Virus record (IMG/VR): IMGVR_UViG_2526164601_000026
DNA length: 25,836 bases
Reading direction: 5' to 3' (one strand)
Source of the DNA: a virus
Lineage: Duplodnaviria > Heunggongvirae > Uroviricota > Caudoviricetes
Below, piece after piece: positions 11,054-25,752 of the stretch (position 1 is the first letter of the stretch; each line of letters opens with the position of its first letter). Position numbers and translations under genes: made by a program. The notes beneath the pieces are model-generated. The model was not told the DNA's origin and did no database searches. It saw only the letters and a list, made by a program, of their open reading frames with translations.

Positions 11054-11067
11054 GAGCAGGTCAAAAA

Positions 11068-11889
11068 ATGAAACTGGAAGATTTACCGAAATACTACTCC
11101 CCAAAATCCCCTGGCCTGACCGATGCATCGGCCTCAACGTCAAAAGATGCGCTGAGTATCACTGATGTGATGGCCGCGCAGGGCATGACACAGAATCGGG
11201 CTGAGATGGGTTTTTCTGCGTTCCTGGGGAAAATGGGCATCAGTATGAATGACAGGGCGCGGGCAACAGAATTACTGGCAGATTATGCACTCAGTCGGTG
11301 CGATCGTGTGGCGGCGTTGAGAAAACTTCCGGCAGAAATAAAACCGGTAGTGATGCGCATTATGGCTTCGTACGCTTTTGAGGATTATGCCCGCAGCGCA
11401 GCGAGTAAAAAGCAGTGCCCTTGTTGCTATGGGGAAAAATTTATTGAAAGCATAGTTTTTACAAACAAGGTCCAGTATCCGGATGGTAAGCCGCCGGTAT
11501 GGGCAAAGTGTACGAAAGGTGTGTATCCGTCTTACTGGGAAGAATGGAAAAAAGTCAGGGAGGTGGTAAAAGTTGCCTGTCCGGAGTGTGGCGGAAAGGG
11601 TGAGGTTTCCACCGCCTGTAAGGATTGCCGTGGGCGTGGTGTCGCCATTCATCGTGAAGAGTCGGTAAAACGTGGTATGCCTGTTATCAGAGACTGCCAG
11701 CGTTGTGGTGGTCGTGGCTATGAAAGACTACCATCAACGGAGGCATTTAATGCTATATGCGAGGTGACAAACCAGATAACACGCGCGTCATGGGAAAAAA
11801 CAGTTAAGAAATTTTATGATGCGCTGGTGACCCGGTTTGATATTGAAGAAGCATGGGCTGAGCGGCAGTTAAAAAAGGTAACTAGGTAA
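11068..11889 (+). CDS. Late-gene antiterminator Q-like protein
   Basis: 273-aa ORF with Cys-rich zinc-binding motifs (CPECGGKGEVSTACKDCRGRG; CQRCGGRG). Located immediately upstream of the PR'/tR'-like region and the tRNAs. Confidence 0.6.
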   Translation: MKLEDLPKYYSPKSPGLTDASASTSKDALSITDVMAAQGMTQNRAEMGFSAFLGKMGISMNDRARATELLADYALSRCDRVAALRKLPAEIKPVVMRIMASYAFEDYARSAASKKQCPCCYGEKFIESIVFTNKVQYPDGKPPVWAKCTKGVYPSYWEEWKKVREVVKVACPECGGKGEVSTACKDCRGRGVAIHREESVKRGMPVIRDCQRCGGRGYERLPSTEAFNAICEVTNQITRASWEKTVKKFYDALVTRFDIEEAWAERQLKKVTR

Positions 11890-11894
11890 CAAGG

Positions 11895-11922
11895 TTGATT
11901 TTTCCGGAATCTGTGGTAAATT
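11895..11922 (+). promoter_or_regulatory. Candidate late promoter PR' (sigma-70 type)
   Basis: TTGATT-16 nt-TAAATT just downstream of Q stop and about 50 nt upstream of a terminator. Confidence 0.35.
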
Positions 11923-11969
11923 CGTCATAACGATGGGCGTTTTATGCCTGACGTTAGAAGAGTTTCTAC

Positions 11970-11995
11970 AACCCGCCGCTGAGCGGGTTTTTTAT
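11970..11995 (+). terminator. tR'-like rho-independent terminator
   Basis: aacccgc-cgctga-gcgggtt hairpin followed by TTTTTTATT. Confidence 0.5.
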
Positions 11996-12032
11996 TGCGA
12001 AATTAATTACGGACCGTTATTATTCTGCTCCC

Positions 12033-12108
12033 GGCCCTTTAGCTCAGTGGTGAGAGCGAGCGACTCATAATCGCCAGGTCGCTGGTTCAAATCCAGCAAG
12101 GGCCACCA
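12033..12108 (+). tRNA. ileZ: tRNA with CAU anticodon, ileX/ileZ-like (tRNA-Ile2)
   Basis: 76-nt cloverleaf: acceptor GGCCCTT/AAGGGCC, D-arm GCTCAGTGGTGAGAGC, anticodon loop CTCATAA, T-arm GCTGGTTCAAATCCAGC, encoded CCA. Closer to ileX than to elongator Met. Confidence 0.85.
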
Positions 12109-12209
12109 TCACAAACCGCCATTAGCTTATCAGGAAGAGCAGACGACACGATAACAGGGTTGTTGGTGCGGGGGGCGGGTCCCCGATGGCGATCCATTAT
12201 CGGTATTCA

Positions 12210-12286
12210 GCGTTGTTAGCTCAGCCGGACAGAGCAATTGCCTTCTAAGCAATCGGTCACTGGTTCGAATCCAGTACAGCGCGCCA
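12210..12286 (+). tRNA. argO: tRNA-Arg (UCU anticodon)
   Basis: 77-nt cloverleaf: acceptor GCGTTGT/ACAGCGC, anticodon stem-loop ATTGC-CTTCTAA-GCAAT, T-arm ACTGGTTCGAATCCAGT, encoded CCA. Confidence 0.85.
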
Positions 12287-12396
12287 TATTCATTCTTCCA
12301 GATTCCTTCCGGCAGAGCCTTATACTGAAATATACCTGGCTCAGGATATTGTTGAAAATATTATATGTTTGTCAAAAATAAAAGTTCTGTTAAGTA

Positions 12397-12750
12397 TTGA
12401 TTGAATATTTGTTATACGGTCTAATGGTTTTTTCAGCATTAAATATTTATCATTCATATGGTGTGGGTAGAGTGAATATTGATGAGGCGTCGGGGTGTTT
12501 CATCCTTAGGCAGCGTATTGATATAGTCAATGCAGCACGAGCAAAGGCCTTCAGCCGTTTGACAGTTTTGTTCTGTACTCCTGATCGTCTTTCGGGAAGA
12601 GACGTTATTATTCTGAATAGTGATGCTATACAGAGGGTTTGCGATGAGTTCATGGTTGCTAATTCAGAATTATTTGCTCTTGTTCAGGAGTACAACAGAA
12701 TAGCCAGGACCTGTGGTATGGATGAACTTCGGATTACTCATCTGGGGTAG
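12397..12750 (+). CDS. Hypothetical protein (cargo gene downstream of phage tRNAs)
   Basis: 117-aa ORF starting at TTG; the first ATG is at 12424. No clear RBS and no family recognised. AT-rich context. Confidence 0.3.
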   Translation: MIEYLLYGLMVFSALNIYHSYGVGRVNIDEASGCFILRQRIDIVNAARAKAFSRLTVLFCTPDRLSGRDVIILNSDAIQRVCDEFMVANSELFALVQEYNRIARTCGMDELRITHLG

Positions 12751-13141
12751 ATACATATCTGGATTATCACCTGTTACGGTAAAAAGTGATTGCTTACTGT
12801 TTTTGTGAATGGCATTGCAGCAGCCGGATAATGTCAGTGCTGGCTGACGGTGTGCTGGTGGCGGGTGTGGTGGTTGTTGCTTTCCCGTTGCTGAAAAAGA
12901 AAACGCCAGACTGTTAGCCGGGTATCAGTTAGCGGGAGAAATTTTTAAATACTTCACAATTCAGGCGGTTGACTGTTGTCTGGTTTGCGGGGAGTTTGTT
13001 AAAAGAAACTGGCATGGTGAATCCCCCTGTGCGGAGGGGCAATCAGCGAGTAGGTATATGGGATAATCGCGGATTCAGGTGCTGGTACTGAATTCACCGG
13101 GAGGCACCCGGCACCATGCAATGGCACATAGCGCCACTCTC

Positions 13142-13178
13142 CAGCCCCTCTCCGGAGGGGCTGTTTATATTGATTTTG
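13142..13178 (+). terminator. Rho-independent terminator-like hairpin
   Basis: cagcccctc-tccg-gaggggctg GC-rich stem followed by TTTATATTGATTTTG. Confidence 0.4.
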
Positions 13179-13197
13179 TCAGATGTGAGTAAACTCC

Positions 13198-13533
13198 TTA
13201 TGGATTTTGTTGTTTTAGCCCATAAGGACATATTTGCAGAGTGCAACGGTTATTAAAGCATTCATTCAATACGTTATCTGTATTTGTAGGGCATTCCTGG
13301 CTGTTTTTGATTAAATTCCAGAATGTTTTATTGAATGGTACTATGTTGTAAATGGTTACAGGTAGCACTTTGTTATTGAGCATGATACCTGTGTGAGTCA
13401 GTGTAAATATACTTTCAGGAGGTAAGAAAGCATCCGATTGATACCAGATTATTAATTTTATTTTACTCCATATGACTGAAAAAGATATTCCGCATGATGG
13501 CTGGATAACTGTATCAATCACAATCCACTTCAT
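13198..13533 (-). CDS. Hypothetical Cys-containing protein (AT-rich cargo gene)
   Basis: 111-aa ORF with AAGGA RBS 7 nt upstream of ATG. Strongly AT-rich; no recognisable family. Confidence 0.45.
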
Positions 13534-13777
13534 TTACTTTCCTTGTTTATGCCTTGCTGGTGATGTTCTGAAAAGTATAAATGATATTTTTGAATTAAAC
13601 CATAGAGCAGAATTATTTTTCTGATGTTGTTTATTGTTTATTTAAATACAGGGTGGTTTATATCTCGTCTTGTAGTTTATCCATGCATATCTGCTTGATA
13701 ATCAGGTTTTTATTTAAGGTATGGTTTTGTGTTTTTTCTGTATTACATGTCAGGTATTTTAAAGAATTATTTTTCAG

Positions 13778-15685
13778 ATGGTGGAAAGAACCATGGCATT
13801 TAAACACTATGATGTTGTCAGGGCGGCGTCGCCATCAGATCTTGCGGAAAAGCTGACACATAAACTGAAAGAGGGCTGGCAGCCGTTTGGTAGTCCGGTG
13901 GCCATAACCCCTTATACTCTGATGCAGGCGATTACAGCAGAAGGTGATGTGGTGGTCAGTGGTGCAACTGAGCCGGATTGGTACTACGTCATCGTACTGG
14001 CCGGGCAGTCCAATGCCATGGCTTACGGTGAAGGGCTTCCGCTGCCGGATTCATACGATGCTCCGGATCCGCGCATTAAACAGCTGGCGCGCCGCAGTAC
14101 AGTGACGCCGGGTGGGGCTGCCTGCAGATATAACGATATTATTCCGGCCGACCACTGCCTGCATGATGTGCAGGATATGAGTACGCTGAATCATCCGAAG
14201 GCAGACCTGAGCAAAGGGCAGTACGGCTGTGTCGGCCAGGGCTTACATATTGCCAAACGTCTGCTGCCGTATATCCCCAAAAATGCCGGGATTCTTCTTG
14301 TTCCCTGCTCCCGTGGTGGTTCGGCATTCACCCAGGGCGCGGAGGGGACATTCAGTGCGGACACGGGGGCCAGCCAGGATTCGGCGCGCTGGGGTGTGGG
14401 TAAACCGTTATATCAGGACCTGATTGCGCGCACTAAAGCTGCATTACAGAAGAACCCGAAAAATGTGTTGCTGGCGGTGTGCTGGATGCAGGGAGAGTTT
14501 GACATGAGCGCCGCCACCTACGCACAGCAACCTGCGCTGTTTACAGCCATGCTGAAGCAGTTTCGTGCTGACCTCACTGTGTTTAACGCGCAGTGTCATG
14601 GTGGCAGTGCTGTAAATGTGCCGTGGATTTGTGGTGACACGACGTATTACTGGAAAAATACATACGCTACCCAGTACGACACCGTGTACGGCGGGTATAA
14701 AAACAGGGAGAGTGAGGGCGTTTATTTTGTGCCCTTCATGACAGACGGTAACGGCGTCAATACCGCCACTAACGCGCCGGCAGAAGATCCGGATATTCCG
14801 GCATCAGGATATTACGGTGCGGCATCGAGAACGAATGGAAACCAGGTATCATCAAACCGCCCGACACATTTCAGTTCATGGGCGCGCAGGAGCATTATTC
14901 CGGATCGTCTGGCAACCGCTATTCTGAACGCAGCCGGGCGCACCTCCGCCTTCATCAGTGGTAAGGCACCGGAAATCAAACCCTCGCCCGGCGGCAACAC
15001 GCCATCGGGTCCGTCTGCAGATACGTCCGTTCGCACAATCTCCCTGCTGCCGGCAGCCGGAGAGGCTGCTGCGCAGGGCTGGAGCATTAAGGATGGCGGA
15101 ATTCAGTTGTCAGATGGTGTATTTAAGATCACCAAGCAGAGCAATAAAACCTGGTCCCTGACGCATCCGGTGGATGACGCAATTACCCTGCTGACACAGG
15201 GCGGCAGACTGACCTGTAAGTTCCGCCTGTCAGGCGCACTGACCAACAATCAGTTCGGGCTGGGGATTTATCTGTATACGGATGCTCCCGTTCCTGATGG
15301 TGTGGCGATGACGGGTACCGGTAATCCGTTCCTGATGTCGTACTTCACTCAGACCACTGACGGCAGAGTGAATCTGATGCATCACAGGAAAGCCGGAAAC
15401 ACGAAGCTGGGGGAGTTCGGCGATTACGGTAACGACTGGCAGACGCTGGAGCTGGTGTTCACCGCCGGCAGTGCCACGGTTACTCCGAAACTGAATGGAG
15501 TGGCTGGCCCGGCATTCCAGGTTATAAAAGACAGTCTGACACTGGGACTGAATGCGCTGACGCTGACGGATGTTACAAAAAATGCAGCGTATGGCGTTGA
15601 GATAGAAAGTCTGGTGCTGGAGATAAATGCACCGGCAGCATATAAAAAAGAGCCAGCGACTGACCTGAAAGAAGACGCTGGCTAA
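13778..15685 (+). CDS. nanS-p: NanS-p-like prophage sialate O-acetylesterase (N-terminal DUF1737-like plus SASA esterase domain)
   Basis: 635-aa ORF. N-terminus MAFKHYDVVRAASPSDLAEKLTHKLKEGWQPFGSPVA; esterase motif region VIVLAGQSNAMAY. Occupies the position downstream of Q/tRNAs typical of Stx-phage nanS-p. Alternative start at 13793. Confidence 0.7.
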   Translation: MVERTMAFKHYDVVRAASPSDLAEKLTHKLKEGWQPFGSPVAITPYTLMQAITAEGDVVVSGATEPDWYYVIVLAGQSNAMAYGEGLPLPDSYDAPDPRIKQLARRSTVTPGGAACRYNDIIPADHCLHDVQDMSTLNHPKADLSKGQYGCVGQGLHIAKRLLPYIPKNAGILLVPCSRGGSAFTQGAEGTFSADTGASQDSARWGVGKPLYQDLIARTKAALQKNPKNVLLAVCWMQGEFDMSAATYAQQPALFTAMLKQFRADLTVFNAQCHGGSAVNVPWICGDTTYYWKNTYATQYDTVYGGYKNRESEGVYFVPFMTDGNGVNTATNAPAEDPDIPASGYYGAASRTNGNQVSSNRPTHFSSWARRSIIPDRLATAILNAAGRTSAFISGKAPEIKPSPGGNTPSGPSADTSVRTISLLPAAGEAAAQGWSIKDGGIQLSDGVFKITKQSNKTWSLTHPVDDAITLLTQGGRLTCKFRLSGALTNNQFGLGIYLYTDAPVPDGVAMTGTGNPFLMSYFTQTTDGRVNLMHHRKAGNTKLGEFGDYGNDWQTLELVFTAGSATVTPKLNGVAGPAFQVIKDSLTLGLNALTLTDVTKNAAYGVEIESLVLEINAPAAYKKEPATDLKEDAG

Positions 15686-15857
15686 AAGGCCTTATATGTT
15701 TGTAGATGATACTTATATTTGGCAGTACATTTTCTGACAGACAGTGACGGGTGTTGTCAAGATATTGTGTCATTTATAACCTGAATCAGGGGGGCCGGAA
15801 TGTTATCTGGCATTTTTAGCAGAGCCTGAATGCCATAATCACGGCTCCCGGAGTTGG

Positions 15858-15892
15858 CCGTCAGTGGGTGACACTGGCGGTTTTTTTGTTTT
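15858..15892 (+). terminator. Rho-independent terminator upstream of lysis cassette
   Basis: ccgtcagtg-ggtga-cactggcgg hairpin followed by TTTTTTTGTTTTT. Confidence 0.5.
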
Positions 15893-15937
15893 TCTTTACT
15901 TTCATTTTCTGTCGGCGGTGACGGAGACATACATCAG

Positions 15938-16144
15938 ATGGAAAAAATCACAACAGGTGTGTCATACACCACGTCAGCGGTGGGGACGGGATACTGGTTA
16001 CTGCAGCTGCTGGACAAAGTCTCTCCGTCCCAGTGGGTGGCAATAGGTGTGCTGGGAAGTCTGCTGTTTGGCCTGCTGACGTATCTGACTAACCTGTATT
16101 TCAAAATCAGAGAGGACCGTCGTAAGGTGGCGCGGGGAGAGTAG
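15938..16144 (+). CDS. S: Class II holin / pinholin (S21-like)
   Basis: 68-aa [71 protein letters not shown] with two TM helices. GGAG RBS 11 nt upstream. Confidence 0.85.
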
Positions 16145-16399
16145 TCGATGAATAAACAATACGAACTGGTTGTAAAATGAATATTTCTAACTGAAAAAAC
16201 GTTCCATGAGGTAAGAAAAGGTCACAGGCAATCAATAACAGGACGTGATGAAAGACCCTTGCATTTGTGCGCTTTCTCTTTAGATAGCAGCAGATACTGA
16301 AAATCTGAGTTGTCGGGGAGTCAGGGATACAGCTGTGCAAGAGTTGGTCATTGTGATTCCATTGAAATCCTGTATGCCATGAAGGGCAGGATTTTATGG

Positions 16400-16714
16400 C
16401 TACCTGAGCTTTGGTGATAGTAAGTTGAAAATTCGCATTTTTTGCTGACATGCGTAACGAGAATCCCATAAGCAGGGAGGACTTAATTCTTCATTAACCC
16501 ATGCGTTGATATTATGTTTCAGCCGTTGAAGCATCAGCGGTGTTAATGTTGTGGTAATAATATCCAGCGTTTTATGTGAGATCTTACCGTAAGGGTCTGC
16601 AAGAATGCTGCTTGTTGCTTCGTTATTATCTGCCATCAGAAGAAGTAACTCTGATTTAACGTTTTCTGTCATTAGTTGTAAAAATCTTCTGCGCAAACTT
16701 TCTTTACTGTTCAT
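16400..16714 (-). CDS. Hypothetical protein encoded antisense between holin and endolysin (possibly YdfR-like)
   Basis: 104-aa ORF in the 690-bp gap between S and R on the opposite strand. Weak RBS. Qin has a ~103-aa gene (ydfR) between its holin and endolysin, but homology is not verified. Confidence 0.3.
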   Translation of the reverse strand: MNSKESLRRRFLQLMTENVKSELLLLMADNNEATSSILADPYGKISHKTLDIITTTLTPLMLQRLKHNINAWVNEELSPPCLWDSRYACQQKMRIFNLLSPKLR

Positions 16715-16831
16715 TTATATGGCTTCATTTGTTGTAATCTGCTGCGTCTCAAGGGATATGTTTATGAGAGCGACCATGAGTGTTGGATTATATACCTAAC
16801 ATATCAAGGGATTAGAAATCGATAAATCCCC

Positions 16832-17365
16832 ATGCACGAAAAAATAAAATACGGCCTGTCGGCTGCCGTTCTGGCGCTGATTGGTGCAGGTGCTTCTGCG
16901 CCTGAAATCCTCGACCAGTTTCTGGATGAAAAGGAAGGTAACCACACCACGGCATACCGTGATGGTGCGGGGATCTGGACCATCTGCCGTGGTGCCATTC
17001 TGGTGGATGGTAAGCCTGTTATTCCTGGCATGAAGCTGTCAAAGGAAAAATGCGACCGGGTTAATGCCATCGAACGTGACAAGGCGCTGGCATGGGTGGA
17101 GAAAAACATCCGGGTGCCGCTGACCGAACCCCAGAAAGCGGGGATCGCGTCATTCTGTCCGTACAACATTGGCCCCGGTAAGTGCTTCCCGTCGACGTTT
17201 TATAAACGAATTAATGCAGGCGATCGAAAAGGTGCCTGTGAGGCGATTCGCTGGTGGATTAAGGACGGTGGCAGAGACTGCCGTATCCGTTCAAATAATT
17301 GCTACGGTCAGGTCTCACGGCGTGACCAGGAGAGCGCGCTGGCGTGCTGGGACATCGACAGATAG
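16832..17365 (+). CDS. R: SAR endolysin (phage lysozyme, GH24, R21-like)
   Basis: 177-aa ORF. N-terminal signal-anchor-release segment YGLSAAVLALIGAGASAPEIL, then lysozyme core (EGNHTTAYRDGAGIWTICRG...). Confidence 0.85.
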   Translation: MHEKIKYGLSAAVLALIGAGASAPEILDQFLDEKEGNHTTAYRDGAGIWTICRGAILVDGKPVIPGMKLSKEKCDRVNAIERDKALAWVEKNIRVPLTEPQKAGIASFCPYNIGPGKCFPSTFYKRINAGDRKGACEAIRWWIKDGGRDCRIRSNNCYGQVSRRDQESALACWDIDR

Positions 17366-17454
17366 CAGAATATTTTCCTGAAAAATGACGTTGGCCAACG
17401 CGGGTGGATAACACGAAATCCTGAAAACTGGTAAAACCTAAGTGAATAAAAGTA

Positions 17455-17495
17455 AAAACCCCGTTTGTTGGCAGCAAGCGGGGTTTTGTGTTTTC
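17455..17495 (+). terminator. Terminator-like extended hairpin between endolysin and Rz
   Basis: aaaaccccg...cggggtttt stem with inner ttg-gcag-caa helix, followed by GTGTTTTCT. Confidence 0.35.
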
Positions 17496-17700
17496 TGACC
17501 TTGAGCAAGGCAAGGGAGAAATTATGGGTAGGGAGGTACTTTCCCTGTGAGGAAGTATAAAAGATTCTTTCTGAGGTTGTCCATTATGAAAGGCATTGAA
17601 GTGGAGACGCCAGCCAGGCTGGATTTAACAAGAGCGGCAGCTTTTGCCATTCGTATTGTGGCCATTGCTGTTCTGGTCTGGGCAATCCGTTGGTGGTGAT

Positions 17701-18168
17701 ATGAACCGTGTTCTGTGCGTGGTTATCATTGTCCTGCTGGTGGCCTGTGGTGCGCTTAGTCTGGGGCTGAATCATTACCGTGATCACGCCATCATCTACA
17801 AAGAGCAGCGCGATAAAAAAGCCAGTGAGCTGGAGCTGGCGAACGCGACAATTACTGATATGCAGATACGCCAGCGTGATGTCGCTGCACTTGATGCCAG
17901 ATACTCGAGGGAATTAGCCGATGCGAGAGCTGAAAATGAAACTCTGCGTGCTGATGTTGCCGCTGGTCGTAAGCGCCTGCGGATCAACGCCACCTGCTCC
18001 GGTACCGTGCGTGAAGCCACCGGCACCTCCGGCGTGGATAATGCAACCGGCCCCCGACTGGCAGACACCGCTGAACGGGATTATTTCATCCTCAGAGAAC
18101 GGCTGATGGCAATGCAGAAGCAACTGGAAGGAGCACAGGAATATATCCGTACCCAGTGTATACCGTGA
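17701..18168 (+). CDS. Rz: Rz i-spanin
   Basis: Start MNRVLCVVIIVLLVACGALSLGLNHY (N-terminal TM) chosen over the upstream track start at 17644; coiled-coil-rich periplasmic domain. Embedded Rz1 in the +1 frame. Confidence 0.75.
   Translation: MNRVLCVVIIVLLVACGALSLGLNHYRDHAIIYKEQRDKKASELELANATITDMQIRQRDVAALDARYSRELADARAENETLRADVAAGRKRLRINATCSGTVREATGTSGVDNATGPRLADTAERDYFILRERLMAMQKQLEGAQEYIRTQCIP
17936..18106 (+). CDS. Rz1: Rz1 o-spanin lipoprotein (embedded in Rz)
   Basis: MKLCVLMLPLVVSAC lipobox followed by a proline-rich mature peptide; entirely within Rz in another frame. Confidence 0.65.
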   Translation: MKLCVLMLPLVVSACGSTPPAPVPCVKPPAPPAWIMQPAPDWQTPLNGIISSSENG

Positions 18169-18633
18169 TATTTTGTTATGAAGGTGTTACTGGTAACGTT
18201 AAGGTAATTTAACAAAGAGTCAGTTCCGGACTTTATAGTGTGCTCAGTTCATGGCCAAAAACGATTTCTGTGATAAATATTTTGAATATTATTTACAGGT
18301 AAATGGAGTGGGGCACATGGATAGAAATATTACAATAGAGAATGAAGTATATGCCCGTATTGTATGGGCAGAGAAGGCAAAAACACGGTAATTCCGTGTG
18401 TTGCCATGATACCTGATTGGCAGAATAGTTGTTTGGTTTTGAGTATATAGTCAGCGTTTTTTGTTCAGTAATTGCTCCCTCAAAAAATAATAAAACAAGG
18501 TGATTATTTTTGTTTATTATTTAGTTTTTTTTGTGTGTTGTTTTATTGTTTTTGCGTGGTTTGTTTTTTATTGTTATTTCATTAAGGGAAGGTAAATTCA
18601 GGATGGCAGTCTGTAGATAATCGGAGGTCACTT

Positions 18634-18948
18634 ATGCTACATGATCACGTGGCAGAATGTCTGGAGAAAAAAGGACTGTACCGGAGAGCAGCTGAACGAT
18701 GGGCAAAAGTGATGGTACAGCTAAGTGATGACCAGAAAAGAAAAGTGGCGGCACAGAAACGAGCAGAGTGTTTGCGTAAGGCGCGCCGGACTCCGGTTTC
18801 ACCGGTGAACCTGACCGAAATAAAACAAGCGGTCAACAGACTACATTCTGAGTTGGGAATGGGATTTGAAGAGCGGCGGGTATTCCGACGATATAAAGGG
18901 ACAGGAGAACAGAATACGTCCGGAAACGCGCGGTCAAAAAAATGCTAA
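18634..18948 (+). CDS. PerC/Pch-family transcriptional regulator-like protein
   Basis: 104-aa ORF MLHDHVAECLEKKGLYRRAAERWAKVM..., resembling the PerC-family N-terminal motif. Preceded by a ~200-bp AT/T-tract-rich region (18420-18620). Family call from memory. Confidence 0.55.
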   Translation: MLHDHVAECLEKKGLYRRAAERWAKVMVQLSDDQKRKVAAQKRAECLRKARRTPVSPVNLTEIKQAVNRLHSELGMGFEERRVFRRYKGTGEQNTSGNARSKKC

Positions 18949-18984
18949 AAAATATCTGAGAGAGTTATTGCCTGTTACCATAAG

Positions 18985-19011
18985 AAAAAGCGACTTTAGT
19001 GGTCGCTTTTT
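18985..19011. terminator. Bidirectional rho-independent terminator
   Basis: AAAAA-gcgac-tttagtg-gtcgc-TTTTT, between the convergent PerC-like gene (+) and the RHH gene (-). Confidence 0.5.
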
Positions 19012-19029
19012 GTGTCATATATAAGTCGT

Positions 19030-19254
19030 TTAAGTAAACCTGTCTGAACAGGTGCTCTGGTCGTGTTTGTCTTTGTTGGGTACAAATTGAGAATATTTTT
19101 CATTAATTAATCTTCTTCTGCAGGCTTCAATAACCCACGCTGAAAAATTACCTGAACCTTTCAGGTCAAGAGCGATGTTAATTTGTTCAATTATCTGGTT
19201 TGGAAATCGGATGTTGCGGGTTGTTGTTCTGCGGGTTCTGTTCTTTGATGACAT
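19030..19254 (-). CDS. Ribbon-helix-helix (Arc/CopG-like) DNA-binding protein
   Basis: 74-aa ORF with TRNIRFPNQIIEQINIALDLKGSGNFSAWVIEACRRRL, a typical RHH beta-strand/helix pattern. Confidence 0.5.
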   Translation of the reverse strand: MSSKNRTRRTTTRNIRFPNQIIEQINIALDLKGSGNFSAWVIEACRRRLINEKYSQFVPNKDKHDQSTCSDRFT

Positions 19255-19450
19255 AATGTTGCCCCGTATTCAGTGTTGCTGATTTGTATTATCTGAAGTT
19301 GCTTTTACGCTAATTTGATGCAGATCAATTAATACGATACCTGCGTAATAATTGATTATTTCTCGTGGTTTGATGGCGTACACACATGTCGTGATAAACC
19401 TCATGTAGATGATAATTATTATCATTTTCGTGGGTCCTTTCCGGCGATCC

Positions 19451-19473
19451 GACAGGTTACGGGGCGGCGACCT
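19451..19473. other. cos: Phage cos site (cosN cohesive-end sequence GGGCGGCGACCT at 19462-19473), lambda-type
   Basis: ...cgtgggtcctttccggcgatccgacaggttacg|GGGCGGCGACCTCGCGGGTTTTCGCTATTTATGA matches the joined lambda right and left ends as I recall them, about 215 nt upstream of Nu1. Confidence 0.8.
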
Positions 19474-19688
19474 CGCGGGTTTTCGCTATTTATGAGATTT
19501 TTTGAGGGGGAGTTGTTGTTTAATTGTTTGGTATATCTAATTGATAAGTAAGGTGAAAATAAAATAAATACAACAACCTTACGATGTGTTTTGATGTCGT
19601 CAATGCGAAAAATGTCAATGATATCAAATGGTTTTGTAAAAACACATGGTTGTTGTATCGCTTTTTATCGATGGCTTATGGAGAGGAG

Positions 19689-20195
19689 ATGGCCTTTTTA
19701 TTGAATAAAAGTGATATGGCCTCCTCCATCGGTATATCTGTTCAGGCATTTGATAAATGGGGCGTTCCTCCTGTTGAGCGTCGGGGGAGGGAAGTTTTTT
19801 ATGACGTTAAAACTGTACTGGAGATAGATCGCGAGCGGCGACAACACAATCAGAGAATACCTGATGACGAGGGCGATCTGGAGGAAAGGCTGCTTCGGGC
19901 CAGAGCTGAACTGACAGAAGAACAGGCCGTAGCTCAAAAACTTAAAAATCAGGTAACCGAAGGTAAGCTTATTGACACCGGATTCTGTATTTTTGCCCTC
20001 AGTAAGCTGGCAATGGTGTTATCCAGTACGCTTGATTCCATCCCTTTATCCATGCAGCGACAGTTTCCTGATTTAACACCGCGCCATCTTGACCATCTGA
20101 AAACCCTTATTGCTAAGGGGGCAAATCAGTGTGCGCGGGCAGGGGATAAATTACCGGATTTACTTGATGAATATATCAGAGCAACAACTGAATAA
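19689..20195 (+). CDS. nu1: Terminase small subunit (lambda Nu1-like)
   Basis: Aligns with lambda Nu1 (ours DTGFCIFALSKLAMVLSSTLDSIPLSMQRQFPDLTPRHLDHLK versus lambda ETAFCTFVLSRIAGEIASILDGLPLSVQRRFPELENRHVDFLK). GGAG RBS. Alternative start at 19671. 3' end overlaps terA by 29 nt, as in lambda. Confidence 0.8.
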   Translation: MAFLLNKSDMASSIGISVQAFDKWGVPPVERRGREVFYDVKTVLEIDRERRQHNQRIPDDEGDLEERLLRARAELTEEQAVAQKLKNQVTEGKLIDTGFCIFALSKLAMVLSSTLDSIPLSMQRQFPDLTPRHLDHLKTLIAKGANQCARAGDKLPDLLDEYIRATTE

Positions 20196-22094
20196 TATGA
20201 TGAGCGCTGTCACAACTGCATTACAGCCCCTGATAAGGGCATTGCCGGTGACGCCAGTTGAATGGGCTGATCAAAATTATTATCTGCCTAAAGAATCTTC
20301 ATATGGTGAGGGAGAATGGAAAAACGCTGCCATTCCAGATCGCCATCATGAACAGCATGGGGAATGATCAGATCCGCACTGTTAATCTGATTAAATCTGC
20401 CCGTGTTGGCTATACAAAGATGTTGCTGGGGGTGGTCGGGTATTTTATTGAGCATAAATCCCGAAACAGTCTGCTTTTTCAGCCCACGGATTCTGCCGCT
20501 GAAGATTTTATGAAGTCTCACGTGGAGGCGACGATTCGGAACGTGCCATGCCTGAAAGACCTTTCCCCATGGCTGGGTCGTAAACATCGTGACAATACTC
20601 TCACGCTGAAACGCTTTTCATCGGGCGTCGGTTTCTGGTGCCTGGGCGGTGCTGCCGCCAAAAACTACCGTGAAAAATCCGTGGACGTGGTCTGCTATGA
20701 CGAACTTTCCTCGTTCGAGCCGGATGTCGAAAAAGAGGGCTCGCCAACCCTGCTGGGGGATAAGCGTATTGAGGGGTCGGTGTGGCCAAAATCCATTCGC
20801 GGCTCGACGCCTAAAATCAAAGGCACCTGCCAGATCGAAAAAGCCGCTAACGAGTCGGCGCATTTTATGCGTTTTTATGTGCCCTGCCCGCACTGTGGGG
20901 AGGAGCAGTATCTGAAATTTGGCGATGAGTCCACGCCTTTTGGGCTTAAATGGGAGAAGGACAGCCCTGAAAGTGTTTTCTACCTCTGTGAACATCATGG
21001 CTGCGTGATCCATCAGTCTGAACTGGACCAGAGCAACGGGCGGTGGATCTGTGAAAACACGGGCATGTGGACCCGTGACGGTCTGACGTTTTTCAGCGCC
21101 CGGGGTGATGAAATTCCGCCGCCGCGCTCCATCACGTTCCATATCTGGACGGCGTACAGTCCGTTCACCACCTGGGTACAGATTGTCTATGACTGGCTGG
21201 ATGCACTGAAAGATCCCAACGGCCTGAAAACCTTTGTGAACACCACGCTGGGCGAGACCTGGGAAGAGGCCGTGGGCGAAAAACTCGATCACCAGGTACT
21301 GATGGATAAGGTGGTGCGTTACACGGCGGCGGTGCCTGCCCGGGTGGTTTATCTGACGGCGGGCATTGACTCGCAGCGAAACCGTTTTGAGATGTATGTC
21401 TGGGGATGGGCTCCGGGAGAGGAAGCCTTTCTGGTGGATAAAATCATCATTATGGGGCGTCCTGATGAGGAAGAGACGCTGTTACGTGTGGATGCGGCGA
21501 TCAACAAAAAATACCGCCATGCGGATGGCACCGAAATGACTATTTCCCGTGTCTGCTGGGACACCGGGGGGCTCGATGGTGAAATTGTTTATCAGAGATC
21601 AAAAAACACGGTGTTTCCGGGTGCTGCCGGTAAAAGGCGCGTCTGTCTATGGCAAGCCGGTGATCACCATGCCGAAAACCCGCAATCAGCGGGGCGTGTA
21701 TCTGTGTGAAGTGGGAACGGACACCGCAAAAGAAATTCTCTATGCCCGTATGAAAGCCGATCCCTCGCCTGCGGATGAAGCCACGTCGTATGCCATCCGT
21801 TTTCCTGATGATCCGGAGATTTTTTCGCAGACAGAGGCGCAGCAACTGGTGGCGGAAGAGCTGGTGGAGAAGTGGGAAAAAGGAAAGATGCGTCTGCTGT
21901 GGGATAACAAAAAGCGGCGTAACGAAGCGCTGGACTGCCTGGTGTATGCCTACGCGGCATTACGTGTGTCCGTGCAACGCTGGCAGCTTGATCTGGCTGT
22001 ACTGGCAAAATCCCGGGAAGAAGAGACGACCCGGCCAACCCTGAAAGAACTGGCAGCGAAGCTGTCCGGAGGAGTGAATGGTTACAGTCGCTGA
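20167..22094 (+). pseudogene. A: Terminase large subunit (lambda gpA-like), interrupted by two +1 frameshifts as given
   Basis: Three consecutive frame pieces (20167-20367, ~20320-21709, ~21600-22094) together align with lambda gpA end to end. Frame breaks lie in A runs at 20320-20324 and 21601-21606. Confidence 0.85.
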
Positions 22095-22284
22095 ACTGCA
22101 GGCGCTGCGTCAGGCGCGCCTTGATTTATTAACCGGTAAACGGGTGGTGTCTGTCCAGAAAGATGGACGAAGAATTGAATATACGGCGGCCTCTCTGGAT
22201 GATCTTAACCGGGCGATCAATGATGCGGAGTCAGTGCTGGGGACAACAAGCCGCCGCCGTCGTCCGCTGGGAGTGAGGTTATGA
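22078..22284 (+). CDS. W: Head-tail joining protein (lambda gpW-like)
   Basis: 68 aa, ...LLTGKRVVSVQKDGRRIEYTAASLDDL... versus lambda W ...[27 protein letters not shown].... Confidence 0.75.
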   Translation: MVTVAELQALRQARLDLLTGKRVVSVQKDGRRIEYTAASLDDLNRAINDAESVLGTTSRRRRPLGVRL

Positions 22285-23873
22285 AACGAACGCCTGTCCT
22301 GATTGATGTGAACGGTGTTCCGCTTCGGGAGAGCCTCAGCTACAACGGGGGCGGTGCAGGATTTGGCGGGCAAATGGCGGAGTGGTTGCCACCGGCGCAG
22401 AGTGCCGATGCGGCCCTGTTGCCCGCGTTGCGTCTGGGCAATGCCCGTGCAGATGATCTGGTGCGCAATAACGGGATAGCGGCCAATGCGGTGGCACTGC
22501 ATAAGGATCATATTGTCGGGCATATGTTTCTGATCAGCTACCGTCCGAACTGGCGCTGGCTGGGGATGCGGGAGACTGCAGCAAAAAGTTTTGTCGATGA
22601 GGTGGAGGCGGCCTGGTCGGAATACGCCGAAGGGATGTCTGGCGAGATCGACGTGGAAGGGAAACGCACGTTTACGGAATTTATCCGTGAAGGTGTGGGC
22701 GTTCATGCGTTTAACGGCGAAATCTTTGTGCAGCCGGTCTGGGATACGGAGAGCACGCAACTGTTTCGTACGCGTTTTAAAGCCGTGAGTCCGAAACGGG
22801 TGGACACGCCAGGACACGGTATGGGGAACCGTTTTCTGCGGGCCGGGGTGGAGGTCGATCGATATGGCCGTGCCGTTGCGTACCATATCTGTGAGGATGA
22901 TTTTCCGTTCTCTGGTAGTGGACGATGGGAACGGATCCCGCGTGAACTACCCACCGGGCGTCCGGCCATGCTGCATATTTTCGAGCCGGTGGAGGACGGG
23001 CAGACCCGTGGGGCTAATCAGTTTTACAGCGTCATGGAACGGCTGAAGATGCTGGATTCCCTGCAGGCAACACAGCTTCAGTCGGCCATTGTGAAAGCCA
23101 TGTATGCAGCGACGATTGAAAGTGAACTTGATACCGAAAAGGCCTTTGAATATATCGCCGGTGCGCCGCAGGGGCAGAAGGATAATCCGCTTATTAATAT
23201 TCTGGATAAGTTCTCCACCTGGTATGACACGAATAACGTGACGCTGGGCGGTGTCAAAATTCCGCACCTTTTCCCCGGTGATGATCTGAAACTGCAGACT
23301 GCGCAGGATTCAGACAATGGATTTTCGGCGCTTGAACAGGCGCTGCTGCGGTATATCGCCGCCGGTCTTGGCGTTTCCTACGAACAGTTGTCCCGGGATT
23401 ACTCGAAGGTCAGTTATTCAAGTGCCCGCGCCTCCGCCAATGAGTCGTGGCGCTATTTTATGGGACGACGAAAATTTATTGCGTCCCGGCTGGCCACGCA
23501 GATGTTTTCCTGCTGGCTGGAAGAGGCACTTCTTCGGGGGATTATTCGTCCGCCACGGGCGCGTTTTGATTTTTATCAGGCGCGATCAGCCTGGTCACGG
23601 GCTGAGTGGATTGGAGCCGGAAGAATGGCCATTGACGGGCTCAAGGAAGTCCAGGAATCAGTGATGCGCATTGAGGCCGGACTGAGCACGTATGAGAAAG
23701 AGCTGGCGCTGATGGGCGAGGATTATCAGGACATTTTCCGCCAGCAGGTCAGGGAATCTGCAGAGCGACAAAAAGCCGGACTCTCACGTCCGGTGTGGAT
23801 AGCGCAGGCGTATGAGCAGCAGATAGCGGAGAGTCGCAGGCCGGAAGAGGAGACAACACCACGTGAGACGTAA
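22281..23873 (+). CDS. B: Portal protein (lambda gpB-like)
   Basis: 530-aa ORF, ATGA overlap with W. Size and position match lambda gpB (533 aa). Confidence 0.85.
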   Translation: MKRTPVLIDVNGVPLRESLSYNGGGAGFGGQMAEWLPPAQSADAALLPALRLGNARADDLVRNNGIAANAVALHKDHIVGHMFLISYRPNWRWLGMRETAAKSFVDEVEAAWSEYAEGMSGEIDVEGKRTFTEFIREGVGVHAFNGEIFVQPVWDTESTQLFRTRFKAVSPKRVDTPGHGMGNRFLRAGVEVDRYGRAVAYHICEDDFPFSGSGRWERIPRELPTGRPAMLHIFEPVEDGQTRGANQFYSVMERLKMLDSLQATQLQSAIVKAMYAATIESELDTEKAFEYIAGAPQGQKDNPLINILDKFSTWYDTNNVTLGGVKIPHLFPGDDLKLQTAQDSDNGFSALEQALLRYIAAGLGVSYEQLSRDYSKVSYSSARASANESWRYFMGRRKFIASRLATQMFSCWLEEALLRGIIRPPRARFDFYQARSAWSRAEWIGAGRMAIDGLKEVQESVMRIEAGLSTYEKELALMGEDYQDIFRQQVRESAERQKAGLSRPVWIAQAYEQQIAESRRPEEETTPRET

Positions 23874-25368
23874 TCTTTCACACATTATTGCCGCAGCATT
23901 CAATGAACCGCTGCTTCTGGAGCCCGCCTATGCGCGGGTTTTCTTTTGCGCGCTCGGGCGCGAGATGGGGGCATCAAGTCTTTCGGTACCACAACAGCAG
24001 GTACAGTTTGATGCTCCCGGAATGCTGGCTGAAACGGACGAGTACATGGCCGGAGGTAAACGACCGGCCCGTGTTTACCGGGTGGTGAACGGTATTGCTG
24101 TACTGCCGGTGACCGGCACGCTGGTGCACCGGCTGGGGGGTATGCGGCCATTTTCCGGAATGACAGGCTATGACGGCATTGTCGCCTGTCTTCAGCAGGC
24201 AATGGCGGATAGCCAGGTGCGGGGCGTACTGCTGGACATTGACAGTCCGGGCGGGCAGGCCGCCGGCGCGTTTGACTGCGCTGACATGATTTACCGCCTC
24301 CGTCAGCAGAAGCCGGTCTGGGCACTGTGCAATGACACGGCCTGCTCTGCAGCCATGCTGCTGGCGTCGGCCTGCTCCCGACGGCTGGTTACCCAGACAT
24401 CCCGTATCGGCTCCATTGGCGTGATGATGAGCCATGTCAGCTATGCCGGTCATCTGGCGCAGGCCGGTGTTGATATCACGCTGATTTACTCAGGGGCGCA
24501 CAAGGTGGATGGCAATCAGTTTGAAGCGTTGCCGGCAGAGGTTCGCCAGGACATGCAACAGCGCATTGATGCGGCGCGCCGGATGTTTGCTGAAAAAGTA
24601 GCGATGTATACCGGTCTGTCTGTTGATGCTGTCACGGGAACAGAGGCCGCCGTTTTTGAAGGTCAGTCCGGCATTGAGGCCGGGCTGGCGGATGAATTAA
24701 TCAATGCGTCGGATGCCATCAGTGTGATGGCCACGGCGCTGAACAGTAATGTCAGAGGAGGCACTATGCCGCAATTAACTGCAACGGAAGCCGCCGCGCA
24801 GGAGAACCAGCGAGTGATGGGGATCCTGACATGCCAGGAAGCGAAAGGACGTGAACAGCTTGCCACGATGCTGGCAGGACAACAGGGCATGAGCGTTGAA
24901 CAGGCCCGGGCGATTCTGGCCGCGGCGGCACCACAGCAGCCGGTGGCATCCGCGCAGAGTGAAGCCGATCGCATTATGGCGTGTGAAGAAGCGAAAGGTC
25001 GTGAACAACTGGCGGCAACGCTGGCGGCGATGCCGGAGATGACGGTGGAAAAAGCCCGCCCGATCCTGGCTGCTTCACCGCAGGCGGATGCCGGACCCTC
25101 ACTCCGTGATCAGATCATGGCACTGGATGAGGCAAAAGGGGCTGAGGCGCAGGCTGAACAGCTGGCTGCCTGCCCGGGAATGACTGTGGAGAGCGCCCGG
25201 GCTGTGCTGGCTGCGGGATCAGGTAAGGCAGAACCGGTCTCTGCATCCACAACCGCCATGTTTGAACGCATCATGGCGAACCATTCACCGGCAGCGGTAC
25301 AGGGTGGCGTGCCACAGACGTCAGCAGACGGTGATGCGGACGTGAAAATGCTCATGGCCATGCCATGA
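23863..25368 (+). CDS. C: Head maturation protease / scaffold (lambda gpC-Nu3-like, S49 peptidase family)
   Basis: 501 aa starting at GTG and overlapping the portal stop. AFNEPLLLEPAYARVFFCAL and ...RRLVTQTSRIGSIGVMMSH... align with lambda gpC. The C-terminal region carries three copies of a repeat present once in lambda. Confidence 0.8.
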   Translation: MRRNLSHIIAAAFNEPLLLEPAYARVFFCALGREMGASSLSVPQQQVQFDAPGMLAETDEYMAGGKRPARVYRVVNGIAVLPVTGTLVHRLGGMRPFSGMTGYDGIVACLQQAMADSQVRGVLLDIDSPGGQAAGAFDCADMIYRLRQQKPVWALCNDTACSAAMLLASACSRRLVTQTSRIGSIGVMMSHVSYAGHLAQAGVDITLIYSGAHKVDGNQFEALPAEVRQDMQQRIDAARRMFAEKVAMYTGLSVDAVTGTEAAVFEGQSGIEAGLADELINASDAISVMATALNSNVRGGTMPQLTATEAAAQENQRVMGILTCQEAKGREQLATMLAGQQGMSVEQARAILAAAAPQQPVASAQSEADRIMACEEAKGREQLAATLAAMPEMTVEKARPILAASPQADAGPSLRDQIMALDEAKGAEAQAEQLAACPGMTVESARAVLAAGSGKAEPVSASTTAMFERIMANHSPAAVQGGVPQTSADGDADVKMLMAMP

Positions 25369-25404
25369 AGCCAGTGCTGACCATCAACAGGAGGTTTTTA
25401 CAAT

Positions 25405-25752
25405 ATGGTGACGAAAACTATCACTGAACAGCGTGCGGAAGTACGTATTTTTGCCGGTAATGATCCGGCTCATACCGCCACAGGCAGCAGCGGGATTTCC
25501 TCGGCAACACCGGCACTGACGCCCCTGATGCTGGATGAGGCCACCGGGAAACTGGTGGTCTGGGACGGACAGAAAGCCGGTAGTGCGGTTGGCATACTGG
25601 TACTGCCGCTTGAAGGCACAGAGACGGCGCTGACCTATTACAAGTCGGGGACCTTTGCGACGGAGGCAATCCGCTGGCCTGAAAGTGTGGATGAACACAA
25701 AAAGGCCAACGCCTTTGCCGGCAGTGCCCTGAGTCACGCGGCGCTGCCGTAA
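25405..25752 (+). CDS. D: Head decoration protein (lambda gpD-like)
   Basis: 115 aa, NDPAHTATGSSGISSATPALTPLMLDEATGKLVVWDG versus lambda D [37 protein letters not shown]. GGAGG RBS. Confidence 0.85.
   Translation: MVTKTITEQRAEVRIFAGNDPAHTATGSSGISSATPALTPLMLDEATGKLVVWDGQKAGSAVGILVLPLEGTETALTYYKSGTFATEAIRWPESVDEHKKANAFAGSALSHAALP

What the first reader, a model, noticed from the sequence alone, without database searches (positions are those of the whole stretch)
18420..18948. PerC/Pch-like regulator moron between Rz and cos, with an AT-tract-rich upstream region
A 104-aa PerC-family-like protein is encoded between the lysis cassette and cos, preceded by ~200 bp of T/A tracts typical of curved, H-NS-bound promoters, and followed by a bidirectional terminator. 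PerC homologues (Pch) in EHEC prophages activate the LEE master regulator ler. If this is one, the prophage carries a virulence-regulatory cargo gene.
Basis: partly seen in the sequence, partly recalled or inferred. Interest (0 to 1): 0.5.

Follow-up and report, generated by a model that had tools for sequence, protein, structure and literature searches.

The report
Known EHEC virulence regulator gene pch

Summary
Confirmed, and already known. ORF 18634-18948 (+) encodes 104 aa. It matches Pfam PerC (PF06069) end to end (E 3.8e-44, 149 bits) and is 104/104 identical to PchA (ECs_1091) of E. coli O157:H7 Sakai. It is 99% and 98% identical to PchB and PchC. About 890 bp of surrounding DNA, including the AT-rich upstream stretch, differs from the Sakai pchA locus at 3 positions. 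The gene sits where pchB and pchC sit in Sakai: Rz/Rz1, then pch, then ylcI/ynfO (-), then cos, then Nu1. The same coding sequence is present in 673 of 5,426 complete E. coli genomes, with a median of 3 copies each.

The upstream 200 bp is the most A/T-run-dense stretch of the window (74.5% AT, 50% T). An exploratory curvature model and a phasing test do not mark it as curved. H-NS binding there remains untested. Published work attributes pchA control to LrhA, Lrp/butyrate, NtrC and the sRNA DicF. The A5-GCGAC-7 nt-GTCGC-T5 hairpin at 18985-19011 is a plausible two-way terminator.

Published mechanism: Pch binds the LEE1 (ler) promoter and displaces H-NS/StpA.

One side observation: the first 9 kb of the window is IncI1 plasmid backbone, so this copy may be plasmid-borne, or the contig may be chimeric.

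The parts
18634..18948 (+). pch coding sequence (group-1 Pch, PchA allele), 104 aa, PerC family
   Evidence: ORF list. PF06069 PerC positions 1-89 of 90, E 3.8e-44. 104/104 identical to Sakai PchA ECs_1091. 99% and 98% identical to PchB and PchC. RefSeq WP_001303878.1; UniRef name 'PchABC family transcriptional regulator'.
18623..18627 (+). Shine-Dalgarno GGAGG, 6 nt before the ATG
   Evidence: Read directly from the sequence. Conserved in all three Sakai paralogue loci.
18392..18633 (+). AT-rich, T-run-rich upstream region (core 18440-18600). It holds the pch promoter and/or leader; the transcription start was not mapped here.
   Evidence: GC 26-31%. Highest A/T-run density in the window. One mismatch to the Sakai pchA upstream region. 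It is the most divergent segment among the pchA, pchB and pchC loci. Only a weak promoter-like site at 18401-18429 (9 of 12 matches), and the region holds no more promoter-like sites than its shuffles.
18731..18738 (+). ACCAGAAA, perfect complement of the 5' end (UUUCUGGU) of the sRNA DicF. It overlaps a candidate anti-SD segment at 18718-18734.
   Evidence: Duplex calculation using the Sakai Sp11 DicF copy (Rfam RF00039, 75 bits). Reviews report that DicF pairs in the pchA coding sequence at an anti-SD element. The exact published site could not be read, so the assignment is inferred.
18985..19011 (.). Bidirectional intrinsic-terminator-like hairpin A5-GCGAC-TTTAGTG-GTCGC-T5, between the convergent genes pch and ylcI/ynfO
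   Evidence: Folds on both strands. 100% conserved at the Sakai pchA, pchB and pchC loci.
18251..18391 (+). 46-aa ORF inherited together with pch. Unannotated in RefSeq. Function unknown; may not be a real gene.
   Evidence: Full-length match to phrog_2157, E 2.7e-37. No Pfam or NCBIfam match. Open in all Sakai paralogue loci, but the pchC copy differs mostly by amino-acid-changing substitutions.
18383..18399 (.). Hairpin ACACGGAATTACCGTGT. It resembles a terminator only on the minus strand (followed by TTTTTGCC).
   Evidence: Terminator scan.
17701..18168 (+). Rz spanin (context), with Rz1 embedded at 17921-18106
   Evidence: PF03245, E 1.2e-48. RefSeq annotates an Rz1 lipoprotein at the equivalent position.
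19030..19254 (-). YlcI/YnfO-family (DUF3950) gene, convergent with pch (context)
   Evidence: PF13132, E 1.3e-17. NF041551. WP_001300236.1.
19462..19473 (.). cosN-like GGGCGGCGACCT (context; right-hand boundary of the cargo slot)
   Evidence: Read from the sequence. Window 19120-19300 matches lambda 48169-48349 at 89.5%. The region around cos is the most curved stretch of the window in the wedge model.
19716..20195 (+). Terminase small subunit Nu1 (context)
   Evidence: PF07471, E 8.9e-21. Coordinates transferred from the B1_2 annotation.

Best explanation
This is a copy of the group-1 pch gene (the PchA allele) of attaching-and-effacing E. coli. It is carried as non-phage cargo (a 'moron') in the Rz-to-cos slot of a lambdoid (Qin-like) prophage segment.

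How it works, taken from published work on the identical protein. [quoted passage not shown] It binds the LEE1 promoter and the 5' part of ler, reduces and remodels the H-NS/StpA/Hha nucleoprotein complex there, and so de-silences ler. Ler then switches on the rest of the LEE type III secretion island and many non-LEE effector genes. Activation by Pch disappears when hns and stpA are deleted, so Pch acts as an anti-silencer rather than a classical activator.

How it is expressed. Part is shown in the literature and part is inferred by sequence identity.
- Its own AT-rich upstream region receives host signals (LrhA, Lrp plus butyrate, NtrC/nitrogen).
- Translation is gated by an mRNA self-structure that hides the ribosome-binding site. 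The sRNA DicF opens this structure under low oxygen.
- Because the gene lies inside the late operon, between the lysis and head genes, it is probably also read through from the Q-antiterminated late promoter when the prophage is induced. This step is inferred from gene order; the supporting report is that group-1 pch expression rises in the SOS response.

The A5-stem-T5 hairpin ends the moron transcript and the convergent ylcI/ynfO transcript.

Whether Pch has its LEE target in this particular host cannot be told from the window.
For: Shown here:
- PerC-family match, full length, 149 bits.
- 104/104 identity to Sakai PchA.
- 99% DNA identity over about 890 bp, including the upstream region and the terminator.
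- Same slot and gene order as Sakai pchB (Sp11) and pchC (Sp14).
- 47% identity to E2348/69 PerC, which lies next to perB on pMAR2.
- The coding sequence is present at 99% identity or more in 673 of 5,426 complete genomes, median 3 copies. ler is present in 697 of 5,426.
- Listed carriers include O157:H7, O145, O103 and O111 strains.
- Compositional break: 26% GC upstream against about 50% in the flanks.
- Hairpin terminator.
- DicF seed complement at 18731-18738.

From papers:
- Pch activates LEE1 only when H-NS/StpA repress it, and it reduces H-NS occupancy (PMC4764244).
- pchABC are required for full LEE expression and adherence; pchD and pchE are not (PMC6265319, PMC4456613).
- Control by LrhA, Lrp/butyrate and NtrC (PMC4456613, PMC7279287, PMC13012123).
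- DicF and the anti-SD mechanism (PMC7769764, PMC7873438).
- Group-1 pch expression is enhanced by the SOS response (PMC6265319).
Against: Nothing contradicts the identification.

Limits:
- No experiment was or can be done here.
- The host of this window is unknown, so the presence of LEE is not shown.
- The pch-ler co-occurrence rests on similar marginal counts, not on a cross-tabulation.
- The transcription start site was not located, and the promoter scan found no more sites than in shuffles.
- The primary DicF paper and the LrhA paper could not be read.
- The single-sequence AlphaFold model was poor (pLDDT 51) and no solved homologue exists, so the DNA-binding mode remains structurally undefined.
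Confidence: 0.95

Rival explanations
1. The gene is a PerC-family paralogue that does not activate LEE, like PchD or PchE. Its main job would lie elsewhere, for example repression of csgD/curli or of flagella.
For: Five pch homologues exist in O157:H7, and groups 2 and 3 have little effect on LEE. Group-1 genes also modestly repress csgD when over-expressed (PMC6265319).
Against: The protein is 100% identical to PchA and 98-99% identical to PchB and PchC, the three group-1 homologues reported to be needed for full LEE expression. Its length (104 aa) and its Rz-cos location also match group 1.
Confidence: 0.02
2. The gene is intact, but in this host or replicon it has no LEE to act on (a LEE-negative strain, or a plasmid in transit). 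Any effect would then come from general interference with H-NS at other AT-rich loci.
For: The window does not show the host genome. Its first 9 kb is IncI1 plasmid backbone. Pch binds many chromosomal sites, including in K-12 backbone regions (PMC4764244 introduction).
Against: The marginal counts of pch (673 genomes) and ler (697 genomes) among 5,426 genomes are nearly equal. The best DNA matches are to EHEC and atypical-EPEC-type strains.
Confidence: 0.1
3. The T-run-rich upstream region is an intrinsically curved, H-NS-silenced promoter. H-NS would then be the main control of pch.
For: AT content of 72-75%. TpA-step density at the 92nd-96th percentile of the window. The composition is that of horizontally acquired DNA, which H-NS typically coats (PMC4764244 introduction).
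Against: Wedge-model curvature is unremarkable (18th-35th percentile), while the same model does flag cos. There is no 10-11.5 bp phasing of A/T runs (122 of 500 shuffles reach it). There is no TCGATAAATT-like site within 2 mismatches. No H-NS data for the pch promoter were found in the papers or supplements searched. The published regulators are LrhA, Lrp, NtrC and DicF.
Confidence: 0.3
4. The ORF is not independently expressed cargo. It is simply part of the phage late operon, with no promoter of its own.
For: It has the same orientation as the lysis and head genes. No convincing sigma-70 promoter was found by scanning. Group-1 pch expression rises with SOS induction.
Against: Reporter constructs using the 'native promoter PpchA' respond to butyrate in E. 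coli Nissle, outside any prophage (PMC7279287). Regulation by LrhA and Lrp is reported without prophage induction. There is a sharp compositional break and a dedicated terminator.
Confidence: 0.05

Closest known systems
PchA / PchB / PchC (group-1 Pch) of EHEC O157:H7 Sakai (ECs_1091, ECs_2182, ECs_2737)
   Same: 100%, 99% and 98% protein identity, all 104 aa. Same slot between Rz/Rz1 and cos/Nu1 of lambdoid prophages. Same terminator. Upstream region of the pchA type, with 1 mismatch.
   Different: In Sakai the pchA locus (prophage Sp4) is inverted and cut off from cos by IS629 and ISEc8. Here the gene keeps the intact pch-ylcI-cos-Nu1 order seen at pchB and pchC. So this is a PchA-allele protein and promoter in a pchB/pchC-like context. 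The prophage segment abuts IncI1 plasmid DNA.
PerC of typical EPEC (perABC operon, pEAF plasmid pMAR2 of E2348/69)
   Same: Same Pfam family. 47% identity and 70% similarity over 87 residues. Both are reported to activate the LEE1 promoter.
   Different: PerC is 89 aa, lacks the C-terminal tail of about 15 residues, and is the third gene of a plasmid operon next to perB. EPEC LEE expression depends on it only under particular conditions, whereas EHEC LEE expression requires pch.
PchD / PchE (group 2 and 3 PerC homologues of O157:H7)
   Same: PerC family, carried on prophages or prophage-like elements.
   Different: They differ in size and sequence group and have little effect on LEE. PchE represses csgD, curli and flagella (PMC7369912). 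They were not compared by sequence here.
Ler (H-NS paralogue encoded in LEE1)
   Same: Works in a similar way: a horizontally acquired anti-silencer that relieves H-NS repression of virulence genes.
   Different: A different protein family. Ler shares the H-NS DNA-binding domain, while Pch has no recognised DNA-binding domain. Pch acts upstream of Ler, and also together with it.
Cargo in the Rz-cos slot of lambdoid phages (e.g. bor of lambda)
   Same: Same genomic slot, immediately downstream of Rz/Rz1 and upstream of cos. Lysogen-expressed accessory gene. That bor occupies this slot in lambda is from my own knowledge; the J02459 record read here does not annotate it.
   Different: An unrelated gene product: bor is a serum-resistance lipoprotein encoded on the opposite strand. 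Homology to lambda resumes only at window 19120.

Membership tests
PerC family (Pfam PF06069) | Sequence matches the family HMM above the curated gathering score, over the whole domain | tested here: met
   149.3 bits against a cut-off of 22.6. E 3.8e-44. Profile positions 1-89 of 90.
PerC family (Pfam PF06069) | Recognisable homology to the founding member, EPEC PerC | tested here: met
   47% identity over 87 aa, E 1e-27, to the pMAR2 (E2348/69) PerC encoded next to perB.
Group-1 Pch (PchA/B/C) of EHEC | 104-aa protein nearly identical to Sakai PchA, PchB and PchC | tested here: met
   100%, 99% and 98% identity. The only variable positions are residues 6 and 58.
Group-1 Pch (PchA/B/C) of EHEC | Encoded on a lambdoid prophage between the lysis cassette and cos/terminase | tested here: met
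   Order lysozyme, Rz/Rz1, pch, ylcI, cos, Nu1, terminase. This is the same order as Sakai Sp11 and Sp14.
Group-1 Pch (PchA/B/C) of EHEC | Activates LEE1/ler transcription and is needed for full LEE expression and adherence | not testable with these tools
   Reported for the identical protein in Sakai (PMC4764244, PMC4456613, PMC6265319). Not measurable here.
Group-1 Pch (PchA/B/C) of EHEC | Host genome carries LEE (ler) | tested here: inconclusive
   The window does not include the host genome. Among complete genomes, pch is in 673 and ler in 697 of 5,426. The tools gave no per-genome cross-tabulation.
Phage moron (independently expressed cargo gene) | Absent from the same slot in related phages, with a compositional break | tested here: met
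   No match to lambda between Rz and window 19120. GC drops to 26% upstream of the gene. Almost absent from 50,697 deposited phage genomes.
Phage moron (independently expressed cargo gene) | Own terminator | tested here: met
   A5-GCGAC-7 nt-GTCGC-T5 hairpin at 18985-19011. It folds on both strands and is conserved in all paralogue loci. Its function was not assayed.
Phage moron (independently expressed cargo gene) | Own promoter | tested here: inconclusive
   Only one weak sigma-70-like site (18401-18429, 9 of 12 matches), and no excess of sites over shuffles. The literature uses a functional 'PpchA', but the transcription start could not be retrieved.
Curved, H-NS-bound promoter region | High AT content and many TpA steps | tested here: met
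   72-75% AT. TpA density at the 92nd-96th percentile.
Curved, H-NS-bound promoter region | Intrinsic curvature, i.e. helically phased A-tracts | tested here: not met
   The wedge model places the region at the 18th-35th percentile. No 10-11.5 bp periodicity (122 of 500 shuffles reach it).
Curved, H-NS-bound promoter region | H-NS occupancy or silencing | not testable with these tools
   No high-affinity motif within 2 mismatches. No published H-NS data for this promoter were found.

The most novel reading that the evidence does not exclude
This pch copy may sit on a Qin-like prophage segment of at least 20 kb that is physically joined, next to a partial ISEsa1, to IncI1 conjugative-plasmid backbone (trbC-trbB-trbA and the pnd/sok locus). 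The phage's large terminase gene is broken by three frameshifts. If the junction is real rather than an assembly chimera, the LEE master activator here would travel by conjugation rather than by transduction. It would also arrive together with its own host-signal-responsive promoter.
Probability: 0.3. Interest if true: 0.35.

Novelty: already known. Interest (0 to 1): 0.1.

Why it matters
It shows that the sequence comes from, or has exchanged DNA with, an attaching-and-effacing E. coli lineage (EHEC or atypical EPEC). The element carries a functional-looking copy of the regulator that sits at the top of the LEE virulence cascade. pch copy number and promoter type (pchA-like versus pchB-like) are reported to influence how strongly, and in response to which gut signals, LEE is expressed. 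For genome annotation, the gene should be labelled pchA-type PchABC rather than 'PerC-like'. No new biology follows from the gene itself. The only point that might add something is its possible linkage to a conjugative plasmid.

Tried and rejected
- Reading the primary papers. Melson and Kendall 2019 (PMC6628830) and Porter 2005 (PMC543544) are not held. The exact DicF/anti-SD site and any mapped start site therefore come only from reviews and from my own duplex calculation.
- H-NS binding data. I searched the text and supplements of PMC4764244 and ran three further literature searches. Nothing was found for the pch promoter.
- Single-sequence AlphaFold. Mean pLDDT was 51, giving four helices plus a disordered tail. 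That is too poor for a fold search. There is no PDB homologue. I ran no further search on a gene already identified by identity.
- Whole-DicF duplex energy. It is inflated because intramolecular structure is ignored, and 1.7% of shuffles do as well. Only the 8-nt seed match is reported.
- MFE fold of 18590-18760. It gives a weak SD pairing and a z-score of -1.15, which is not decisive for the anti-SD model.
- Direct repeats in the upstream region. None were found. Only low-complexity A-rich/T-rich inverted matches appeared, and I treat these as compositional.
- NCBIfam. It has no model for the protein.
- DicF next to dicB in Sakai Sp14. Not found at the gathering threshold. The Sp11 copy was used instead.
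- The window junction. No complete genome or PLSDB plasmid holds the window's 9-kb/17-kb junction.

Full report
**Observation**

The window holds an ATG-initiated ORF of 104 codons at 18634-18948 on the + strand. It is preceded by GGAGG at 18623-18627.

- Upstream lie a phage lysozyme (16832-17365, PF00959) and Rz (17701-18168, PF03245, E 1.2e-48), with Rz1 embedded at 17921-18106.
- Downstream lies a convergent YlcI/YnfO (DUF3950) gene at 19030-19254 (-).
- Next comes the lambda-type cohesive-end sequence GGGCGGCGACCT at 19462-19473.
- Then come Nu1 (PF07471) and the large terminase subunit.

The position 'between Rz and cos' is therefore correct.

**Upstream composition**

The 240 bp before the ATG are 68% AT. 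The core 18440-18600 is 74.5% AT and 50% T, with nine A or T runs of 4-8 nt. Windows of 200 bp starting at 18371-18431 contain 48-53 nt in such runs, against a window-wide mean of 11.2 (sd 8.0). This is the highest value in the 25.8 kb.

**Terminator**

Thirty-seven nt after the stop codon lies AAAAA-GCGAC-TTTAGTG-GTCGC-TTTTT (18985-19011). It folds as a hairpin on either strand and lies between the two convergent 3' ends. All parts of the observation are confirmed.

**Identity**

- The protein matches Pfam PerC (PF06069) over profile positions 1-89 of 90. The score is 149.3 bits (cut-off 22.6) and the E-value is 3.8e-44.
- An exact-sequence look-up finds it in public collections as 'PerC family transcriptional regulator' and 'PchABC family transcriptional regulator'. 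In RefSeq it is WP_001303878.1.
- I fetched the three annotated pch loci of E. coli O157:H7 Sakai. The window protein is 104/104 identical to PchA (ECs_1091), 99% identical to PchB and 98% identical to PchC. The only variable residues are 6 (V/L) and 58 (V/M).
- At the DNA level, window 18170-19060 differs from the Sakai pchA locus at three positions, one of them in the AT-rich region.
- Alignment with the pchB and pchC loci shows the same module in the same slot: Rz, then a 46-codon ORF, then the AT-rich region, pch, the terminator, ylcI and cos.
- In that alignment the coding sequence and terminator are almost invariant. The AT-rich upstream stretch is the most divergent part, especially at pchB. 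This fits the reported differential regulation of pchA and pchB by LrhA.
- Against the founding family member, PerC of EPEC E2348/69 (pMAR2, next to perB), identity is 47% over 87 residues.

**Distribution**

- The 315-bp coding sequence occurs in 673 of 5,426 complete E. coli genomes. Identity is 99% or more in 687 of the 688 matching records. The median is 3 copies per genome and the maximum 5. Fifteen copies are on plasmids.
- Listed carriers include O157:H7 (including EDL933), O145, O103 and O111, plus animal isolates.
- ler, taken from the Sakai LEE, occurs in 697 of 5,426 genomes.
- The near-equal marginal counts are compatible with tight co-occurrence, but I could not cross-tabulate them.
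- Among 50,697 deposited phage genomes the gene is essentially absent. There is one fragment from an EDL933-derived record and three distant PerC-like hits. The gene therefore lives in resident prophages rather than in phages that have been isolated.

**Mechanism (from the literature; applies by sequence identity)**

- pchA, pchB and pchC are needed for full LEE expression and adherence. pchD and pchE are not.
- Fukui et al. [quoted passage not shown]
- They also show that Pch lowers H-NS occupancy over LEE and effector loci, alters the H-NS-DNA complex at the 5' part of ler, and excludes H-NS from LEE1 DNA in vitro. Pch is thus an anti-silencer.
- Transcription of pchA responds to LrhA, to Lrp with butyrate, and to NtrC/nitrogen status.
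- Translation is blocked by an SD:anti-SD fold within the mRNA and released by the sRNA DicF at low oxygen.
- Group-1 pch expression rises in the SOS response. This is expected from the gene's position inside the late transcription unit, but the link to late-promoter read-through is my inference.

**Consistency check on the DicF site**

The 5' end of DicF (Sakai Sp11 copy, Rfam 75 bits) is perfectly complementary to 18731-18738. This overlaps a segment (18718-18734) that can pair with the SD/start region. A second candidate anti-SD, CUCCG, lies at 18788-18799. I could not read the primary paper, so which site is the published one remains open.

**What is not supported**

- A wedge-model trajectory places the region at only the 18th-35th percentile of curvature among 160-bp windows.
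- The same model picks out the region around cos (19361-19560) as the most curved stretch of the window. Lambda cos is, to my knowledge, a known bent region, so this serves as a sanity check.
- The A/T runs show no 10-11.5 bp periodicity (122 of 500 shuffles reach the observed power).
- There is no match within two mismatches to the H-NS high-affinity motif TCGATAAATT. TpA-step density is nevertheless high, at the 92nd-96th percentile.
- No H-NS data for the pch promoter turned up.

H-NS binding is compositionally plausible but untested, and intrinsic curvature is not indicated. The transcription start is also unresolved. The scan found one weak site at 18401-18429 and no excess of sites over shuffles.

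**Structure**

There is no solved homologue. A single-sequence AlphaFold model is unreliable (pLDDT 51). It suggests four helices (residues 3-13, 16-27, 32-52, 60-74) and a disordered basic tail. I did not pursue this further.

**Context noticed in passing**

- Window 1-9023 is 99.8% identical to IncI1 plasmid pDEC9B-1. It holds trbC, trbB, trbA, a sok-like RNA at 5560-5717, a partial ISEsa1, and ydfW-flxA-ydfV-relB-relE.
- Window 9019-25836 is 99.7% identical to a chromosomal lambdoid prophage of strain B1_2.
- No complete genome or PLSDB plasmid holds both parts contiguously.
- The order relB-relE-hokD across the join does occur in chromosomal prophages of 46 genomes, but only at 95.7-98% identity. 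That it is the native Qin order is from my own knowledge of K-12.
- The window is therefore either a real plasmid-borne prophage segment or a chimeric contig.
- Plasmid-borne pch has precedent: a plasmid carrying etp type II secretion genes has holin-Rz1-pch flanked by IS elements.
- The large terminase gene is split into three ORFs by single-base homopolymer indels relative to B1_2. This is either decay or sequencing error.

**Verdict**

The finding is real and correctly interpreted in its main point. It concerns one of the best-known prophage cargo genes of EHEC. Novelty: already known. Interest: low.

Noticed in passing
window 1-9023 (junctions near 5717-5813 and 9019-9023): The first 9 kb is IncI1 conjugative-plasmid DNA: trbC, trbB, trbA, a pnd/sok-like RNA, then a partial ISEsa1 and ydfW-flxA-ydfV-relBE. 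It is 99.8% identical to plasmid pDEC9B-1. The rest of the window is 99.7% identical to a chromosomal lambdoid prophage. No complete genome or plasmid in the collections holds both parts together, so this is either a plasmid-prophage fusion or a chimeric contig.
   Followed up: partly
window 20110-22094: The large terminase subunit is split into three ORFs (20110-20367, 20258-21709, 21549-22094). The cause is three single-base homopolymer indels relative to the intact 1929-bp gene of strain B1_2 (+A at 20320, -A at 21607, -T at 21614). This is either prophage decay or homopolymer sequencing errors.
   Followed up: partly
window 18251-18399: A 46-codon ORF between Rz and pch, unannotated in RefSeq, matches phrog_2157 full length (E 2.7e-37). 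It is inherited with pch at all three Sakai loci. It ends in the hairpin ACACGGAATTACCGTGT, which looks like a terminator only on the minus strand. The pchC-locus copy differs mostly by amino-acid-changing substitutions, so coding status is doubtful.
   Followed up: partly
window 13450-13800: A second strongly AT-rich island (about 72-74% AT in 200-bp windows; the most AT-rich stretch of the window). In strain B1_2 the equivalent position holds an IraM-like anti-adapter gene on the minus strand, between the Q/tRNA region and the large esterase gene.
   Followed up: no
window 12033-13172 and 5560-5717: Rfam hits: two tRNAs (12033-12105 and 12210-12283; annotated Ile and Arg in B1_2) and the sRNA family STnc100 (12983-13172, 132 bits) downstream of the Q antiterminator. 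A sok antitoxin RNA lies at 5560-5717 in the plasmid part.
   Followed up: no
window 19361-19560: In the exploratory wedge model, the region around cos is the most curved 160-bp stretch of the whole window (end-to-end/contour ratio 0.67, against a mean of 0.95).
   Followed up: no
L010 (NZ_CP027549.1) 17438-20315: A conjugative IncFIB plasmid carrying etp type II secretion genes holds a prophage fragment (holin, YdfR, Rz1, pch with a 100% identical protein) flanked by IS3 and IS110 elements. In all, 15 pch copies in complete E. coli genomes are on plasmids.
   Followed up: partly
pch coding sequence across collections: pch is in 12% of complete E. coli genomes (median 3 copies) but in essentially none of 50,697 deposited phage genomes. 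Its carrier prophages seem rarely to be isolated as free phage.
   Followed up: no
window 18470-18600, compared with L003 and L004: Among the pchA, pchB and pchC loci, the coding sequence and terminator are almost invariant. The AT-rich upstream stretch is the most divergent segment, especially at pchB.
   Followed up: no
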